Of a stretch of 64,000 nucleotides of DNA, positions 6,710-37,508 are shown one piece after another. The notes under the pieces were generated by a model. The model worked only from the letters and a program-made list of their open reading frames with translations, did not search any database and was not told the DNA's origin. The DNA comes from a virus. The first letter of the stretch is position 1, and each line of letters starts with the position of its first letter. A program made the position numbers and the translations under genes. Where the stretch lies: positions 19,943 through 83,942 of IMG/VR virus record IMGVR_UViG_3300028399_000005; one strand, given 5' to 3'.

Positions 6710-7666
6710 TTACCAAGTTGCGTCTTCGAACTCTTCGGCGATTACGAAGAGATCGGCGGTTAGGTCAGTAAAGGCATAGAACATACCGTATTCCTCGATT
6801 GCCTCGTCGACACGGGCGACGTATTCTGCGACGAGTTCATCGTCGTCGGATTCCTTGTTGAAGAACTTGATGAGTTCTTCTTTGATTAGTTTCTTGAATT
6901 TCTTGAAAGCGTCGAAGTCGGGGTCGGTGTAGAAAACGTATCTGCGCCCCCATGGGGTGTTGCTCTCATAAGGGTCTTCGCTTGCGTCGACGGTCTTGAT
7001 GAGACCAGCCTCTTCTAAGACGTCGACCATGGGGATGCTGTCGTGGATGGAGATGACTTCGGTGCCTGTCTCGATGTCGTAGTCGGAGTCCGCAAACCCC
7101 ATGTAGTGCTCACATGGGATGAAGACTCCTTCCCAGACTGTATTGGGAGTTCCGTCGTCGTGGTACCCAATTATTTCTTGGCGGGTGTCATACAATGGTT
7201 CTTTGCACACTGGACAGTAAATGTTCGGCGCAGAGCCATTCTTGAGAAGTCCGTCAAAAGGCTTATAACCCTCGAGTGAGGGATTCTCTCGGAGTTCGTG
7301 GATGATGAACTCCCATATTATTCTAACTCGCAACCTCTTTCCAATGTTCTTCGCCCTGGCGATGGGATGATTTGTGTATTCTCTTTCCCATCCCAGGGGG
7401 TTTTGATGGGTTGCGAGGTAGAAATGTAGGTATTCATTGATGGCGATCTCGTGGCATGTTGCCACTTTATGAAAAGTGTTGAGGTTCGCCACGAAATCGG
7501 AAAGGTCGCGATCGAGCTCGATTGCGGTCTTGATCACGCGCAGAAGGTATTCGTGCGCGTGCTTGTAGTAGAGAGGCACAAGAGCCTCTCGGGCGTATCT
7601 CTTTAGTTTTTTAATTGATGGGGCGATTTGTTTTAATTGTTCGAGCGGTGGCATTTTCTTTGTCAT
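6710..7666 (-). CDS. hypothetical protein with CxxC motif and own conserved promoter
   Basis: Leaderless ATG after CCACAACC-TATA motif (7667-7705); CPVC and CEH motifs. Confidence 0.7.
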   Translation of the reverse strand: MTKKMPPLEQLKQIAPSIKKLKRYAREALVPLYYKHAHEYLLRVIKTAIELDRDLSDFVANLNTFHKVATCHEIAINEYLHFYLATHQNPLGWEREYTNHPIARAKNIGKRLRVRIIWEFIIHELRENPSLEGYKPFDGLLKNGSAPNIYCPVCKEPLYDTRQEIIGYHDDGTPNTVWEGVFIPCEHYMGFADSDYDIETGTEVISIHDSIPMVDVLEEAGLIKTVDASEDPYESNTPWGRRYVFYTDPDFDAFKKFKKLIKEELIKFFNKESDDDELVAEYVARVDEAIEEYGMFYAFTDLTADLFVIAEEFEDATW

Positions 7667-7705
7667 CAATATAATATAGGAAGTGATAATATATAAAGGT
7701 TGTGG
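7667..7705 (-). promoter_or_regulatory. class-1 promoter
   Basis: ccacaacctttatatattatcacttcctatattatattgATG on the minus strand. Confidence 0.85.
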
Positions 7706-7789
7706 TAAAGACATGTTTTGATCCTTCTTTGGATGTATAATAGCGATAGTTTTTTATAAAGGTGGTTGGAATATGAGTATGAGAAGAAT

Positions 7790-7910
7790 GGGGCAGTAGC
7801 TCAGCCTGGGAGAGCGCGCGAGTAAAGCCCCCTTGCGCGCGCCACTCTGCGCACAGCAGATTGAGGGGGCCTCAGTGTAGTCGCGGGTTCAAATCCCGCC
7901 TGCTCCACCA
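7790..7910 (+). tRNA. tRNA-Ala-like RNA with expanded, non-canonical anticodon domain
   Basis: Acceptor GGGGCAG/CTGCTCC (G3-U70), A73, encoded CCA, D arm GCTC-AGCCTGGGA-GAGC, T arm GCGGG-TTCAAAT-CCCGC; upstream TTTATAAA and downstream T7; ~60 nt occupy the anticodon arm position. Confidence 0.85.
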
Positions 7911-8447
7911 CTTTTTTTGTGAAACAAGCCTAAACCCCGCCATCGTCTCGATGAGGTAACTTCTCGTCGGTTTTCTTTGTGCAGATAACAATATTTTCGC
8001 AATTCTTTCTCGGATTCTTGCACTGCCCGAATGACTACGAAAAAAATGGCACTACAAGTATCCAGAACATACTTCAGGATTTTTTCGATTTTTCGGGGCA
8101 AAAACCCGAACTTTTTCGTTGAAAAAATCAGTTTCCAAGACAAAAAGTATAATTTCACGATTAAGATTTTCAAAAAACTTAATGATTTACCTCAGTTTCC
8201 TATGAAAAGTATATCTTGAATACTCGAGCATATGTTTCATGGCGTGATACAAGCTATTGCAACAGAAATAATTATCGCCATTTCTTCTCGCATGTTTCAA
8301 GACCCGTGATACAAATATGAACTTAGAAAACAGTTCGGAACGTATCGAAAACAAAGAAGTCGAATAGCATGGCAGGATCCTACACAAGTTATGCATTTTT
8401 TCATATTCGCGCGCTCCGCACTTGTACTTACAAAATATTTCTTGTTA

Positions 8448-8486
8448 CCACAACCTTTATATATTTCTCATTCCTATAGTATATTG
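8448..8486 (+). promoter_or_regulatory. class-1 promoter
   Basis: ccacaacctttatatatttctcattcctatagtatattgATG. Confidence 0.85.
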
Positions 8487-8960
8487 ATGACTGGACAAAC
8501 AACTCTTGAAGAGTTTGCTCTTCGCCTCATCCCCGTGGGCGAAGAGATCGAAGTTGTTGTGAAAAAAGACGGGAAAGTAGTCGACTATGTCCCCGTCTTT
8601 CGAAAAGATAAAGCGAATTTCGTCCTCGGCACGTTCGAGGGTGTCGTCGAAGTCGAAGGCAAAACACCGCGCCAGGCGTTAAACGCGGTCAAACGTACAC
8701 TCAAACAAACCTATGGCATTGTCAAATCGCGACGCAGACTACACACCGTCGACGTATCCCTCGAGCAGAGAGTCCTCGACTATATCGGGGACTACGACGA
8801 GTGGGTGCTCGTCTTCGACATATACGAACGCTACGATGTCGGGGTCTCGGAACTCATCGACGCTATTAAGAAGCTACACGAACAAGGAAGAATCGACGTG
8901 GCGGGCGGAATAACACCCCCGCCGATCCCAGCGAGCATGGCGCTCATCCGAAGAATCTAA
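8487..8960 (+). CDS. hypothetical protein with N-terminal PIP-box-like motif and possible C-terminal wHTH
   Basis: MTGQTTLEEF resembles the archaeal QxxLxxF PIP box; leaderless start. Confidence 0.65.
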   Translation: MTGQTTLEEFALRLIPVGEEIEVVVKKDGKVVDYVPVFRKDKANFVLGTFEGVVEVEGKTPRQALNAVKRTLKQTYGIVKSRRRLHTVDVSLEQRVLDYIGDYDEWVLVFDIYERYDVGVSELIDAIKKLHEQGRIDVAGGITPPPIPASMALIRRI

Positions 8961-13132: not shown

Positions 13133-14452
13133 CTACAAGTAGCCGAGCTGTTTTTCGGCGGAGAACAAGCCGAACACCCGTTTTCTGTGTTTCTGGCGCA
13201 GACCGAGCATCTTCCGAGCGAAGTCTTGGAGCGAGAACCCAGCGTTGGCTTCCTTCTCCGCGTCGCCGAGAAAATCGAACAAGATCTTGCTAAACGGCGA
13301 CCCTTCCACGGCGAGAGCGAACGCTTTCCGTTGCTCATCGGCGGGGGCTTGGTTCTTCCGATTAACGCCTTCCTTGAACGCTTGCACCGCCTTCTCGTAC
13401 ATTACGCCGACAAGCGTCTCAACCTCGGCGTATCGTTGTTTCACGGCGTCGCCGAAGTTCGTGTGCACGATCTCGTAGAAATCTCTGCTCCCCTCGGCGA
13501 GGTCTCGCAGAATCGCCTCGAACATCTCGAACCCGCTCTGCTGGCGCACTCTCGAGAGCAAGAAGAACTCTTCCTTCTTGATTTTTAAACGGTTTCCGTT
13601 CGCGTCCCTCGCAACGAACCCCTCTTCGTCTTTCTCTAAGTCTCCGAGCAACTCGAGGGCGTAGTTGATGTTGTCGGCTGGTATGCGTCTCGGTCTCAGT
13701 GCGCCGATCATGCCAGCGACGCCGTCGAGTGTGTTTGCCTTCGTGATCTCCGCCCTGTAAGACTCGTTCTGGCCCGCAACGCGCATCGTGAGCAACGCCG
13801 TTTGGTGCTTGTCGTAGCGAGTAACGAGGCTGTGGCGACTCCAGTGCGGGAACATGACCTCGAAAGCGTAGGTGAATCGCTTGCTCAAGAGATCGTCGAG
13901 CTGGTCAAGGCTGACGTCGAGCGCCGTCAAGAAACCGTCGACGAAATCGATGTCGGCGGGGATCTTGTTCCGCGTGGCGAAAACCCAATCACCACAGTAG
14001 TAGAAAACGTTGAGTAATGTACCATCGAACTTCGTCTCGAGCCACGCCCGCTCCCAATCGAAGTCGACGTGGCGCCCTTCTTCCTCGTTGTAATTGAAGA
14101 ACCGAGGGAAGGCGAGGGCTACATAGTTGCCCTTGGCGTCCACGACGAGCCCGCGCATGACTTGGAACAGGGGTTCTCGGCGCACGAGCCTCGTCAGCCC
14201 AAGATTCGTGTTGAGTTTCATGGTCTGGCGGTAGTTGAGCAAGAACAAGTCCTTCTCGGGGTGTTGCCGAACGTTGATGCCAAAGATGAAAGCATCGAGA
14301 TAGTCCTCGGCGTAGTATCTGCGCCCCTCGTGGTAGTACATGTTGCCGTCCCGCTCGTCGAACACCGAGACCTTGCGCTTGGGGAAGGCTTTCTTCTCGA
14401 CGAGGCGGGCGAGCATCTCGTACTGCAACATTTCTTCGATCTTGTCTGTCAT
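13133..14452 (-). CDS. T4 Rnl1-like RNA ligase
   Basis: RGLVVD, AFPRFFNYNE, motif I KFDGT, FE, EGFV and RLKIK nucleotidyltransferase motifs. Confidence 0.88.
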   Translation of the reverse strand: MTDKIEEMLQYEMLARLVEKKAFPKRKVSVFDERDGNMYYHEGRRYYAEDYLDAFIFGINVRQHPEKDLFLLNYRQTMKLNTNLGLTRLVRREPLFQVMRGLVVDAKGNYVALAFPRFFNYNEEEGRHVDFDWERAWLETKFDGTLLNVFYYCGDWVFATRNKIPADIDFVDGFLTALDVSLDQLDDLLSKRFTYAFEVMFPHWSRHSLVTRYDKHQTALLTMRVAGQNESYRAEITKANTLDGVAGMIGALRPRRIPADNINYALELLGDLEKDEEGFVARDANGNRLKIKKEEFFLLSRVRQQSGFEMFEAILRDLAEGSRDFYEIVHTNFGDAVKQRYAEVETLVGVMYEKAVQAFKEGVNRKNQAPADEQRKAFALAVEGSPFSKILFDFLGDAEKEANAGFSLQDFARKMLGLRQKHRKRVFGLFSAEKQLGYL

Positions 14453-16648: not shown

Positions 16649-16743
16649 ATATATGTATATATATGCGATATATAACTATTTTTGTTTATTAAAACAATGG
16701 ATGAGCTGGGGGTCTCTTCGCGGTTAAGTGGGGTATGTCTTTA

Positions 16744-16789
16744 TCACAACCTTTATATAATACTGTTTCCTATATTATATTGAGGAAAC
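16744..16789 (+). promoter_or_regulatory. class-1 promoter
   Basis: tcacaacctttatataatactgtttcctatattatattg. Confidence 0.8.
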
Positions 16790-28348: not shown

Positions 28349-28402
28349 GGTACATCCCTGTCGTCGGGCGGGTCTCCTTCCCCCTTGCGGGGGTAACCCA
28401 CC
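28349..28402 (-). ncRNA. conserved structured 5' leader, copy A
   Basis: GGUGGGU-UA-CCCCC-GCAA-GGGGG-AAGGAG-ACCCGCC-CGACGAC. Confidence 0.7.
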
Positions 28403-28534
28403 AATATAATATAGGAAGGAGAAATATAAAAAGGTTGTGGTAAAGGTAATCAATATGTTTGTATTTTTCTGATAAAAAATAAGAGAAACTTGGCAGGCGG
28501 TTTATTACAAAAAAATGACAAAAAATAGCGCGAC

Positions 28535-29016: not shown

Positions 29017-29071
29017 AGTCCATCTCTCCGTCGTCGGGTGGTGTTCCTTCCCCGCATGGGGGTGCACCACC
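29017..29071 (-). ncRNA. conserved structured 5' leader, copy B
   Basis: GGUGGUG-CA-CCCC-CAUGC-GGGG-AAGGAA-CACCACC-CGACGAC. Confidence 0.7.
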
Positions 29072-29394
29072 AATATAATATAGGAAGTGGTAATATATAA
29101 ACTTTGTGGGAAATTGGTAGATAATTGCACTCTAAAAGTGTTGCGAGGAGCAAGAAAACGAATCTCGCCTGTCCGCCCGCTGGGGGTGGCGGGTGTTTAC
29201 GTCAATCAAACGTCTATTCTTTTAGACAAGCGACTGATTGGGGTACTATTTACGCCAATTTGAAAAGTTGCTAATTAATAAAGGAATTAATTAACAAAAC
29301 TTGCAGGGAATTCTGCGTGCGGAAAAATATAATCATTAAAAAACGGCGATCGATCGAATCAAGGAAAGAAGAAGGCGAAGAAAGGCGGGGTTTG

Positions 29395-37383: not shown

Positions 37384-37508
37384 TGGCGGTGCTCGCGAGC
37401 CTCGCACTCGCTCTCCTTTTCGGGCAGAGCCACCTTCTGCCCTATCCGCTTCCCCCGCGTGGTGGCTTGGGCGGGTTTCACGGAAAGGAGCGGGCTATTC
37501 CCAGCACC
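37384..37508 (-). ncRNA. 125-nt tRNA-like RNA with CCA end and kissing-loop domain
   Basis: 5' GGUGCU pairs with 3' AGCACC-G-CCA; T-arm-like GCGAG-UGCGAGG-CUCGC; BRE/TATA cgaaaaacatataa ~24 nt upstream; CTTTTTT downstream. Confidence 0.75.

What the first reader, a model, noticed from the sequence alone, without database searches (positions are those of the whole stretch)
7790..7910. Alanine-identity tRNA whose anticodon arm is replaced by a ~60-nt multi-helix domain
Seen: intact acceptor, D and T arms, G3-U70, A73, encoded CCA, own TATA box and T7 terminator. The anticodon position holds CGC-GAG/CUC-A-GUG, an 8-bp GCCCCCUU/GAGGGGGC stem and an inner UCUGC-GCACA-GCAGA hairpin (alternative UGCGC/GCGCA pairing). 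A buried CU-UGC-G resembles an Ala anticodon. I could not fit a canonical bulge-helix-bulge intron that yields a normal tRNA. Known: AlaRS charges via G3-U70 regardless of anticodon, the principle behind tmRNA. Inference: an aminoacylatable non-decoding RNA (tmRNA-like, decoy for anticodon nucleases, or Ala donor), or a tRNA with atypical multiple introns.
Basis: partly seen in the sequence, partly recalled or inferred. Interest (0 to 1): 0.78.

Follow-up and report, generated by a model that had tools for sequence, protein, structure and literature searches.

The report
Anticodon-less alanine tRNA look-alike, archaeal virus
An uncultured tailed virus from a hydrothermal vent carries a gene for an RNA with the complete outer frame of an alanine tRNA but a long rigid hairpin where the codon-reading arm should be, so it probably cannot read codons; its role is untested.

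Summary
Window 7790-7910 (+) is the only Rfam tRNA match in the 83,942-base virus record (42.2 bits). It has intact acceptor, D and T arms, G3·U70, A73, encoded CCA, its own TATA-like box and a T7 run. Sixty-one bases stand where 17 belong, and they fold into a bulged rod.

I tested the ordinary reading, an archaeal pre-tRNA with protein-spliced introns, with a rule-based bulge-helix-bulge (BHB) solver. It solved 101 of 120 intron-bearing archaeal tRNAs under relaxed rules. For the viral RNA its only relaxed solution gives anticodon AAA and needs a fold 29 kcal/mol worse than the rod. No route gives an alanine anticodon arm.

The best reading, at about 0.45, is a non-decoding, probably alanine-chargeable tRNA mimic. 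It is untested, because I found no homologue and no RNA data.

The tmRNA idea is not supported. The decoy idea is only inferred, from an Rnl1-family RNA ligase 5 kb away.

This scan has noted similar anticodon-less tRNA look-alikes before on phage DNA. I saw more in 63 IMG/VR contigs.

The parts
7753..7760 (+). TATA-like box TTTATAAA, 30 bases upstream of the RNA 5' end. It is distinct from the virus's repeated 'class I' promoter.
   Evidence: Sequence. Alignment with three class I promoter copies shows it is a different promoter. Function as a promoter is inferred.
7790..7910 (+). The whole tRNA-Ala-framed RNA, 121 nt including the encoded CCA.
   Evidence: Rfam RF00005, 42.2 bits (gathering score 29), model positions 1-71. 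It is the only tRNA match in the 83,942-base record.
7790..7796 (+). Acceptor stem 5' strand. G3 (7792) pairs with U70 (7904).
   Evidence: Sequence. 7 of 7 pairs with 7900-7906.
7799..7815 (+). D arm: 4-bp stem and a 9-nt loop with G18 G19.
7817..7877 (+). 61-nt rod that takes the place of the 17-nt anticodon arm.
   Evidence: With the cloverleaf enforced, the minimum-energy fold is -54.0 kcal/mol and has this rod.
7823..7826 (+). UAAA bulge on the 5' strand of the rod. A single bulged A lies opposite and further out, at 7874.
7827..7835 (+). 5' strand of the 9-bp C-run/G-run helix, partner 7862-7870. It contains CUUGCG (7832-7837), an alanine-type anticodon-loop sequence that is paired, not exposed.
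7846..7860 (+). Apical hairpin (5 bp, loop GCACA). It competes with a GCGC/GCGC pairing at 7839-7852.
   Evidence: suboptimal folds.
7878..7899 (+). Variable region UAGUC (7878-7882) and T arm (7883-7899).
7900..7910 (+). Acceptor 3' strand (7900-7906), A73 (7907) and encoded CCA (7908-7910).
7912..7918 (+). Run of seven T, a likely archaeal transcription stop.
   Evidence: Sequence. Function is inferred.
13133..14452 (-). Context only: T4 Rnl1-family RNA ligase gene, 5.2 kb away. Any link to the RNA is inferred.
   Evidence: phrog_562 'RNA ligase and tail fiber protein attachment catalyst', E 9.1e-27. Pfam RNA_lig_T4_1 scores 26.8 bits, below its 28.3 cut-off. No PDB sequence match.
37384..37508 (+). 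Context only: a second tRNA-ended small RNA of the same virus, reported by another agent.
   Evidence: Earlier finding e1-6132533. Sequence read. Not called tRNA by Rfam at gathering score.

Best explanation
This is a virus-encoded small RNA derived from an alanine tRNA.

Inferred steps:
- It is transcribed from its own TATA promoter to a T-run.
- It is trimmed by the host's tRNA end-processing enzymes, because its acceptor, D and T parts are a complete tRNA frame.
- It can probably be charged with alanine, because alanyl-tRNA synthetase reads G3·U70 and A73 and not the anticodon (established knowledge, recalled).

Shown here: the 17-nt anticodon arm is replaced by a 61-nt bulged rod. The only alanine-type anticodon sequence is locked inside a 9-bp helix. 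No protein-splicing motif would restore a normal arm. The RNA therefore cannot read codons.

Most likely mechanism (inferred): it works as a tRNA look-alike that occupies a tRNA-binding factor. That factor could be a host tRNA-cutting defence nuclease, a processing or modification enzyme, or the viral Rnl1-type ligase. The tRNA frame would supply stability and recognition, and the rod would be the specific or inert part.
For: - The tRNA frame is intact, with alanine identity marks, and it is the only tRNA hit in the record.
- It has its own TATA-like box, different from the virus's repeated promoter, and a T7 run.
- BHB solver, positive controls: strict rules solved 47 of 120 intron-bearing archaeal tRNAs, relaxed 101 of 120, loose 118 of 120.
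- BHB solver, viral RNA: 0 strict solutions and 2 relaxed solutions with one product, anticodon AAA with an A31·C39 mismatch. There are 6 loose solutions, all with loops that begin GUAA, and none gives an alanine anticodon.
- The fold needed for the relaxed solution is -24.9 kcal/mol, against -54.0 for the rod at 37 C. At 80 C the figures are +7.8 against -12.9.
- 131 formal ways to cut out an Ala(UGC) arm exist. In all of them the 5' intron is 10 nt and forms at most 2 of the 4 central-helix pairs. Known intron lengths are 11-129 nt (PMC4090602, passages).
- A cellular contig in the same sample has a normal 17-nt Ala(GGC) arm between closely similar 5' and 3' parts. The viral insert is therefore a departure from a normal gene.
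- tRNA frames with long rods in place of the anticodon loop recur in other viral contigs, for example L175, L177, L198, L227 and L229. Rfam calls these tRNA at 42-56 bits. They also recur in earlier notes of this scan.
- The virus has a T4 Rnl1-family ligase.
Against: - I found no homologue of the RNA, so there is no conservation or covariation evidence.
- No RNA run holds the locus (see Tried and rejected).
- Fold stability is only modestly above shuffles.
- My solver is a rule set, not tRNAscan-SE or SPLITS. It missed 19 of 120 controls in relaxed mode.
- The host and its splicing endonuclease type are unknown.
- Only 1 of 150 shuffled inserts gave a relaxed solution, so the AAA solution is not trivially chance. 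I ascribe it to a register shift of the long helix.
- I found no complementarity to viral sequences that would point to a target.
- A similar bold claim on phage DNA partly fell on a later check (e1-2653850).
Confidence: 0.45

Rival explanations
1. It is a true pre-tRNA-Ala(UGC). Its extra 44 bases are removed by atypical splicing, such as very short or nested introns, a host endonuclease of unusually broad specificity, or a viral enzyme together with the Rnl1-type ligase. The product would be a decoding tRNA.
For: - CUUGCG sits with 5-bp complementary flanks (GCCCC/GGGGC).
- Positions 32-35 pair with downstream bases, as in the central helix of a canonical-position intron, and a C-G-C stretch follows where the 5' splice bulge would be.
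- Multi-intron tRNAs are common in vent Thermoproteota; examples L064 and L076 are.
- A neat formal product CGCGC-CUUGCGC-GCGUG exists.
Against: - There is no 3' bulge, because the central-helix strand runs straight into the stem.
- All 131 formal partitions need a 10-nt 5' intron with at most 2 of 4 central-helix pairs, and many need a 3' intron of 9 nt or less.
- The solver found no route even in loose mode, which solves 118 of 120 controls.
- The many formal solutions reflect low-complexity GC runs.
Confidence: 0.2
2. It is a captured tRNA-Ala gene inactivated by an insertion or rearrangement in its anticodon arm. That would make it evolutionary debris with no function of its own.
For: - It is a single copy with no homologue found.
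- Fold stability is only about 2 sd better than shuffles.
- The body closely resembles a cellular tRNA-Ala in the same sample, which is compatible with recent capture.
Against: - Every stem of the frame is perfectly paired and the conserved tertiary positions are kept: U8, A14, G15-C48, G18 G19, the T loop.
- A dedicated promoter-like box and a T-run are kept in a tightly packed genome.
- The insert continues the anticodon stem coaxially instead of disrupting it.
- Comparable rod-bearing tRNA frames recur in other viruses.
Confidence: 0.2
3. The tRNA frame is a vehicle. A degenerate bulge-helix-bulge at the base of the rod (UAAA bulge, 3-bp GAG/CUC helix, A bulge) is cut by the splicing endonuclease. 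This would release a ~50-nt hairpin RNA, possibly circularised, as the active product.
For: - The two bulges lie on opposite strands in the correct topology for a BHB.
- Candidate site S36/S86 scores 3 of 4 central pairs, with a 2-bp outer helix (my reading of the rule; this pair is not in the call's H=4 list).
- Intron-derived functional RNAs are known, such as the C/D box RNA in tRNA-Trp introns (PMC4090602).
Against: - The geometry is 4-nt bulge, 3-bp helix, 1-nt bulge, not 3-4-3.
- The ligated exons would be a tRNA without an anticodon arm.
- I found no target complementarity for the released hairpin.
Confidence: 0.07
4. It is a tmRNA-like rescue RNA that enters stalled ribosomes and adds alanine.
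For: - Alanine identity. The 3' 33 bases are 94% identical to the 3' end of an E. coli ssrA copy in a phage record.
- One frame through the rod is open for 17 codons starting with GCC (my reading).
Against: - ARAGORN in tmRNA mode finds nothing, and Rfam gives no tmRNA match.
- The open frame is almost wholly base-paired, and an open frame of that length is expected by chance in about 4 of 10 cases.
- There are no pseudoknots.
- Archaea have no known tmRNA/SmpB system (recalled).
- The ssrA similarity is only the shared alanine T arm and acceptor end.
Confidence: 0.02

Closest known systems
Archaeal pre-tRNAs with canonical and non-canonical bulge-helix-bulge introns (Thermoproteales, Desulfurococcales, DPANN). 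Review: PMC4090602.
   Same: Archaeal-type tRNA frame with extra bases between the D and T arms. Anticodon-loop bases pair with downstream bases. The habitat is one where such genes abound. The 120 comparators are.
   Different: No pair of 3-nt bulges around a 4-bp helix delimits removable segments. No splice route gives a normal arm. The extra bases extend the anticodon stem on both strands.
Anticodon-less tRNA-shaped RNAs of bacteriophages.
   Same: Complete tRNA outer frame, often with encoded CCA, and a hairpin or rod where the anticodon loop should be. Viral origin and unknown function.
   Different: No sequence relationship was found. This one is in an archaeal virus with an archaeal promoter. 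It carries explicit alanine identity marks and keeps a buried alanine anticodon-loop sequence.
tmRNA (SsrA)
   Same: Alanine acceptor end with G3·U70, and no anticodon. The last 33 bases are 94% identical to an ssrA 3' end.
   Different: 121 nt with no pseudoknots and no accessible tag reading frame. Not detected by ARAGORN -m or Rfam. tmRNA has no D-arm/anticodon-arm continuity of this kind (recalled).
YrlA-type Y RNAs with a tRNA-like module (Chen 2014, PMC4201824; named in earlier notes, not read by me)
   Same: A tRNA-like fold whose anticodon-stem equivalent continues into a long helix. Proposed roles in RNA repair or as nuclease decoys.
   Different: In YrlA the RNA ends lie in the long helix and the acceptor is closed (recalled). 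Here the ends are at the acceptor with CCA. No Rfam Y RNA hit, and no Ro60/TROVE gene among the 49 ORFs I scanned.
Engineered 'tRNA scaffold' RNAs (Ponchon and Dardel; recalled)
   Same: A foreign hairpin replaces the anticodon arm. The tRNA frame gives processing and stability.
   Different: Those are man-made. Here a natural gene has that layout.
Phage tRNAs that evade anticodon nucleases through anticodon-loop changes (PMC10264068; I saw only the search listing and the start of the abstract)
   Same: Viral tRNA genes shaped by host tRNA-cutting defences. They co-occur with RNA repair enzymes.
   Different: Those tRNAs still decode. This RNA has no accessible anticodon loop.

Membership tests
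tRNA (Rfam RF00005) | Cloverleaf frame: acceptor, D and T arms with conserved loop bases, scoring above the gathering score. | tested here: met
   42.2 bits against 29, model positions 1-71.
tRNA (Rfam RF00005) | A 5-bp anticodon stem with a 7-nt loop that exposes an anticodon. | tested here: not met
   59 bases replace 15 model positions. The minimum-energy fold is a closed rod.
Alanine tRNA identity | G3·U70 wobble pair and A73. | tested here: met
   7792·7904 is G·U and 7907 is A. Charging itself is not testable with these tools.
Archaeal BHB-intron pre-tRNA | Each intron is bounded by two 3-nt bulges around a 4-bp helix, or by an hBH/HBh' relaxed form (PMC4090602). | tested here: not met
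   0 strict solutions. The only relaxed solution needs a fold 29 kcal/mol worse than the rod. Controls: 101 of 120 solved.
Archaeal BHB-intron pre-tRNA | Removal of the introns gives a canonical anticodon arm consistent with the tRNA's identity. | tested here: not met
   Solver products carry AAA, AAC or AAG anticodons with 4 of 5 stem pairs. Routes to an alanine arm all need a 10-nt 5' intron without a central helix.
Archaeal BHB-intron pre-tRNA | Cleavage by splicing endonuclease and ligation by RtcB. | not testable with these tools
   Needs an in vitro assay or RNA sequencing.
tmRNA | tRNA-like domain plus an mRNA-like tag frame and pseudoknots, detected by ARAGORN or Rfam. | tested here: not met
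   ARAGORN -m finds nothing. No Rfam tmRNA hit at gathering score or at E<=1.
YrlA / Y RNA | Ro60-binding helix formed by the RNA ends, an Rfam match, and a neighbouring Ro60/TROVE gene. | tested here: not met
   No Rfam hit. The ends are at the acceptor. No TROVE domain among the 49 ORFs I scanned. Not all ORFs were scanned.
Viral anticodon-less tRNA-shaped RNAs (informal class) | Viral gene with an intact tRNA frame and a structured insert in place of the anticodon loop or arm. | tested here: met
   Comparable cases.
Viral anticodon-less tRNA-shaped RNAs (informal class) | Conservation of the RNA among related viruses, and a stable transcript. | tested here: inconclusive
   No relative with the locus could be fetched.

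The most novel reading that the evidence does not exclude
An archaeal tailed virus makes an alanine-chargeable tRNA look-alike that cannot decode. This RNA, a second tRNA-ended RNA and a T4 Rnl1-type ligase would form an RNA-level counter-defence. The look-alike would soak up or mislead a host tRNA-targeting nuclease or tRNA-processing enzyme. That would make it the first archaeal-virus member of a large, still undescribed class of viral anticodon-less tRNA mimics.
Probability: 0.15. Interest if true: 0.75.

Novelty: new variant of a known kind. Interest (0 to 1): 0.45.

Why it matters
If the RNA is made and stable, it would show that archaeal viruses use the tRNA frame as a handle for non-decoding RNAs, as bacteriophages do. 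It would also be a clean case, because the alanine identity marks make charging directly testable.

It could point to tRNA-directed defence and counter-defence in hyperthermophilic archaea, where little is known.

There is also a practical lesson. Such genes are missed by default ARAGORN and scored as intron-bearing tRNAs by covariance models. Viral 'tRNA' counts may therefore include RNAs that do not decode.

Tried and rejected
**Homologue searches that found nothing useful**
- Degenerate frame pattern in viral contigs: 0 hits.
- A 23-base stretch of the second RNA in viral contigs: 0 hits.
- A 16-base stretch of the rod in viral contigs: 5 hits, all without tRNA context.
- blastn of the RNA against GenBank phages: only matches to the 3' 30-35 bases.
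- Neighbouring 334-aa protein and the portal protein in viral contigs: no relatives.
- The same 334-aa protein as an alignment in metagenome contigs: 13 loci at 36-55% identity. Rfam found no RNA family in any of the 13 at E<=0.1.
- PolB has one relative, at 48% identity.
- An 82%-identical neighbour protein (P0002, on a 9,960-base contig) and P0007 (on a 56,955-base contig) exist. Their DNA could not be fetched.

**Inner domain and 5' end against cellular genomes**
- The inner domain against 401 genomes of one phylum and 38 of another gave a best E of 0.0116, which is chance level.
- The 5' 27 bases against the same 401 genomes: no match with fewer than 2 mismatches among the matches listed (44 further matches were not shown). 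The host was not identified.

**Sequencing runs**
- No RNA holder was listed.
- Contigs of run X2 did not show a relative's version of the locus. The listing was truncated, and parts without cover are not evidence.

**Other checks**
- Antisense-target idea: k-mer matches of the insert to the viral genome are at chance level.
- K-turn, C/D box and target-site-duplication readings were rejected by eye.
- The class of 63 viral long-insert tRNAs was only surveyed. The BHB solver in relaxed mode solved 15 of the 63. I judged roughly seven by eye to be artefacts of neighbouring tRNAs, and I did not drop them from the count.

**Literature**
- Searches listed no paper describing an anticodon-less tRNA-like RNA in an archaeal virus.
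- I read passages only of PMC4090602 and PMC7824862. For all other papers I saw only the listing and the start of the abstract.
- Supplements were not looked at and may hold lists of viral RNA candidates.

**Tools not run**
- tRNAscan-SE and SPLITS were not available.

Full report
**What is there.** Window 7790-7910 (+) reads as a complete tRNA outer frame.
- The acceptor stem pairs 7 of 7, with G3·U70 at 7792·7904.
- The D arm has a 4-bp stem and G18 G19. The T arm has a 5-bp stem and loop UUCAAAU.
- A73 is at 7907 and an encoded CCA at 7908-7910. One C and then seven T follow, at 7912-7918.
- TTTATAAA lies at 7753-7760, 30 bases upstream. It differs from the 43-base 'class I' promoter that the virus repeats before many genes.
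- Rfam's tRNA model matches end to end at 42.2 bits (gathering score 29). It has to skip 59 bases where 15 anticodon-arm positions belong.
- Default ARAGORN reports nothing in the window. With introns allowed it gives an implausible Cys(ACA) with a long extra arm. In tmRNA mode it gives nothing.

The record is an IMG/VR virus contig of 83,942 bases. It is linear and estimated 77% complete, and this is its only tRNA match.

The genes mark a tailed archaeal-type virus: family B polymerase, ERCC4-HhH nuclease, a portal-MuF fusion, a primase-polymerase, methylases, a SNF2 helicase, a RAMP protein, TGT-like proteins and an HK97 gp10-like tail component. Its portal is under 30% identical to any GenBank phage.

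**The inserted domain.** With the cloverleaf enforced, bases 7817-7877 fold as one coaxial rod, listed from the base outward:
- CGC/GUG;
- a bulged A at 7874;
- GAG/CUC;
- a UAAA bulge at 7823-7826;
- a 7-9-bp C-run/G-run helix;
- an apical part with two competing hairpins.

Stability is only modestly above chance. The whole RNA has z = -2.06, with 4 of 200 shuffles as good. The domain alone has z = -1.85, with 50 of 1000 as good.

CUUGCG (7832-7837), with GCCCC before it and GGGGC further on, looks like an Ala(UGC) anticodon arm. Its first four bases are paired with 7862-7865, as in the central helix of a canonical-position intron. There is no 3' bulge, because that strand runs straight into the stem.

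**Is it a spliced tRNA?** This is the ordinary explanation in a vent archaeal setting, so I tested it with controls. The BHB rule is a 4-bp helix flanked by two 3-nt bulges, with the first two anticodon bases in the helix. Relaxed hBH/HBh' forms are allowed, and known introns are 11-129 nt. The rule is taken from passages of PMC4090602.

I wrote a solver that removes up to three introns in any order, rescanning after each removal. It accepts a product only if it has a 17-nt arm with at least 4 of 5 stem pairs, U33 and a purine at 37.

| Set tested | Strict | Relaxed | Loose |
|---|---|---|---|
| 120 intron-bearing archaeal tRNAs with the same D and T arm words | 47 of 120 | 101 of 120 | 118 of 120 |
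| 150 dinucleotide shuffles of the viral insert | 0 of 150 | 1 of 150 | 53 of 150 |
| The viral RNA (number of solutions) | 0 | 2, one product | 6 |

- The relaxed solution for the viral RNA is a single 44-nt intron at position 40/41. Its product is the arm CGCGA-GUAAAGC-CCGUG, with anticodon AAA and an A31·C39 mismatch.
- The six loose solutions all have loops that begin GUAA.
- None of the solutions gives an alanine anticodon, although the frame is unmistakably alanine.
- The relaxed solution needs the long helix slipped by one register. That fold is -24.9 kcal/mol against -54.0 at 37 C, and +7.8 against -12.9 at 80 C. I regard it as an artefact of a long helix made of C and G runs.
- An exhaustive listing gave 131 formal three-piece ways to assemble a perfect Ala(UGC) arm. 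In every one the 5' intron is 10 nt with at most 2 of 4 central-helix pairs, and many need a 3' intron of 9 nt or less.

Standard protein splicing therefore does not explain the gene. My solver is not tRNAscan-SE or SPLITS, and the host's endonuclease type is unknown.

**Comparison with a normal gene.** In the source sample's contigs, another contig (depth 18.8) matches the viral RNA up to 7815 and again from 7880. Between those points it has 20 bases that read as an ordinary arm with a GGC anticodon. The viral gene is thus a normal alanine tRNA frame with its arm exchanged.

**Relatives and targets.**
- I found no homologue of the RNA in IMG/VR.
- I found none in GenBank phages, where only the shared alanine 3' end matches, including an ssrA 3' end.
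- I found none beside distant homologues of the neighbouring gene in 13 metagenome loci.
- The inner domain matches nothing significant in 439 archaeal genomes sampled.
- It has no above-chance complementarity to the viral genome or to the virus's second tRNA-ended RNA.

Conservation, covariation and expression therefore remain untested.

**Context.** ORF 13133-14452 (-) belongs to the T4 Rnl1 family: phrog_562, E 9.1e-27. Pfam support is just below its cut-off, and there is no PDB sequence match. In T4 this ligase reseals anticodon loops cut by a host nuclease, and phage RNA repair systems are reviewed in PMC7824862 (passages). Another agent reported a second tRNA-ended RNA at 37384-37508.

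**A wider pattern.** A loose frame pattern found 63 IMG/VR loci with 45-75 bases between the D and T stems.
- Several are neighbouring-tRNA artefacts or real intron-bearing tRNAs. L203 and L228 are of giant-virus type, and L220 has a C/D-box-like intron.
- Others keep a perfect frame, often with encoded CCA, and have a long rod where the anticodon loop should be. Examples are L175, L177, L186, L198, L227 and L229.
- Rfam calls ten examined examples tRNA at 42-56 bits, some inside phage tRNA clusters.
- My solver in relaxed mode solves 15 of the 63.

This scan's earlier notes describe similar anticodon-less tRNA look-alikes in many phages. One bold reading among them partly fell on a later check. 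My literature searches found no description of such an RNA in an archaeal virus.

**Verdict.**
- The most likely reading, at about 0.45, is a non-decoding, probably alanine-chargeable tRNA mimic whose frame gives processing and stability. A decoy or sponge role is inferred, not shown.
- The rivals are atypical splicing to a real tRNA-Ala (0.2), an inactivated captured gene (0.2), an excised-hairpin vehicle (0.07) and a tmRNA-like role (0.02).
- It is a new variant, in an archaeal virus and with alanine identity, of a kind already seen in bacteriophages.
- Interest is moderate, because everything beyond the anatomy is untested.

Noticed in passing
L175, L177, L186, L198, L227, L229 and others among L175-L237 (IMG/VR contigs): Many viral contigs carry tRNA frames, often with CCA and some inside tRNA clusters, in which a long perfect hairpin replaces the anticodon loop. 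Rfam scores them as tRNA at 42-56 bits. L207 has G3·U70 and A73 like the target.
   Followed up: partly
window 7815/7880, joint in run X1: A second contig of the source sample (depth 18.8) carries a normal tRNA-Ala(GGC) whose 5' and 3' parts align with the viral RNA. It may come from the host or another vent archaeon.
   Followed up: no
window 13133-14452 (-): T4 Rnl1-family RNA ligase (phrog_562, E 9.1e-27). I recognised no polynucleotide kinase-phosphatase partner among the ORFs scanned.
   Followed up: partly
window 7663-7709, 8445-8487, 16741-16783, 1126-1169, 28402-28443, 29071-29113: A ~43-base promoter element is repeated in both orientations directly before start codons. The tRNA-like gene does not use it.
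   Followed up: partly
window 37384-37508 (+): Second small RNA with a tRNA-like 3' end. Rfam does not call it tRNA at gathering score. Its promoter region differs from that of the target.
   Followed up: partly
window 7889-8173 (-): A 94-codon open frame on the opposite strand ends inside the T arm of the RNA gene. It has no PHROG match and may be spurious.
   Followed up: no
window 7827-7880 (+): One frame through the rod is open for 17 codons, from GCC to a UAG in the variable loop. It is almost wholly base-paired and expected by chance in about 4 of 10 cases, so I give it no weight.
   Followed up: yes
L182, L212, L231 (IMG/VR contigs): tRNA frames with a normal GGA anticodon arm followed by an unusually long (~40-base) extra hairpin before the T arm.
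   Followed up: no
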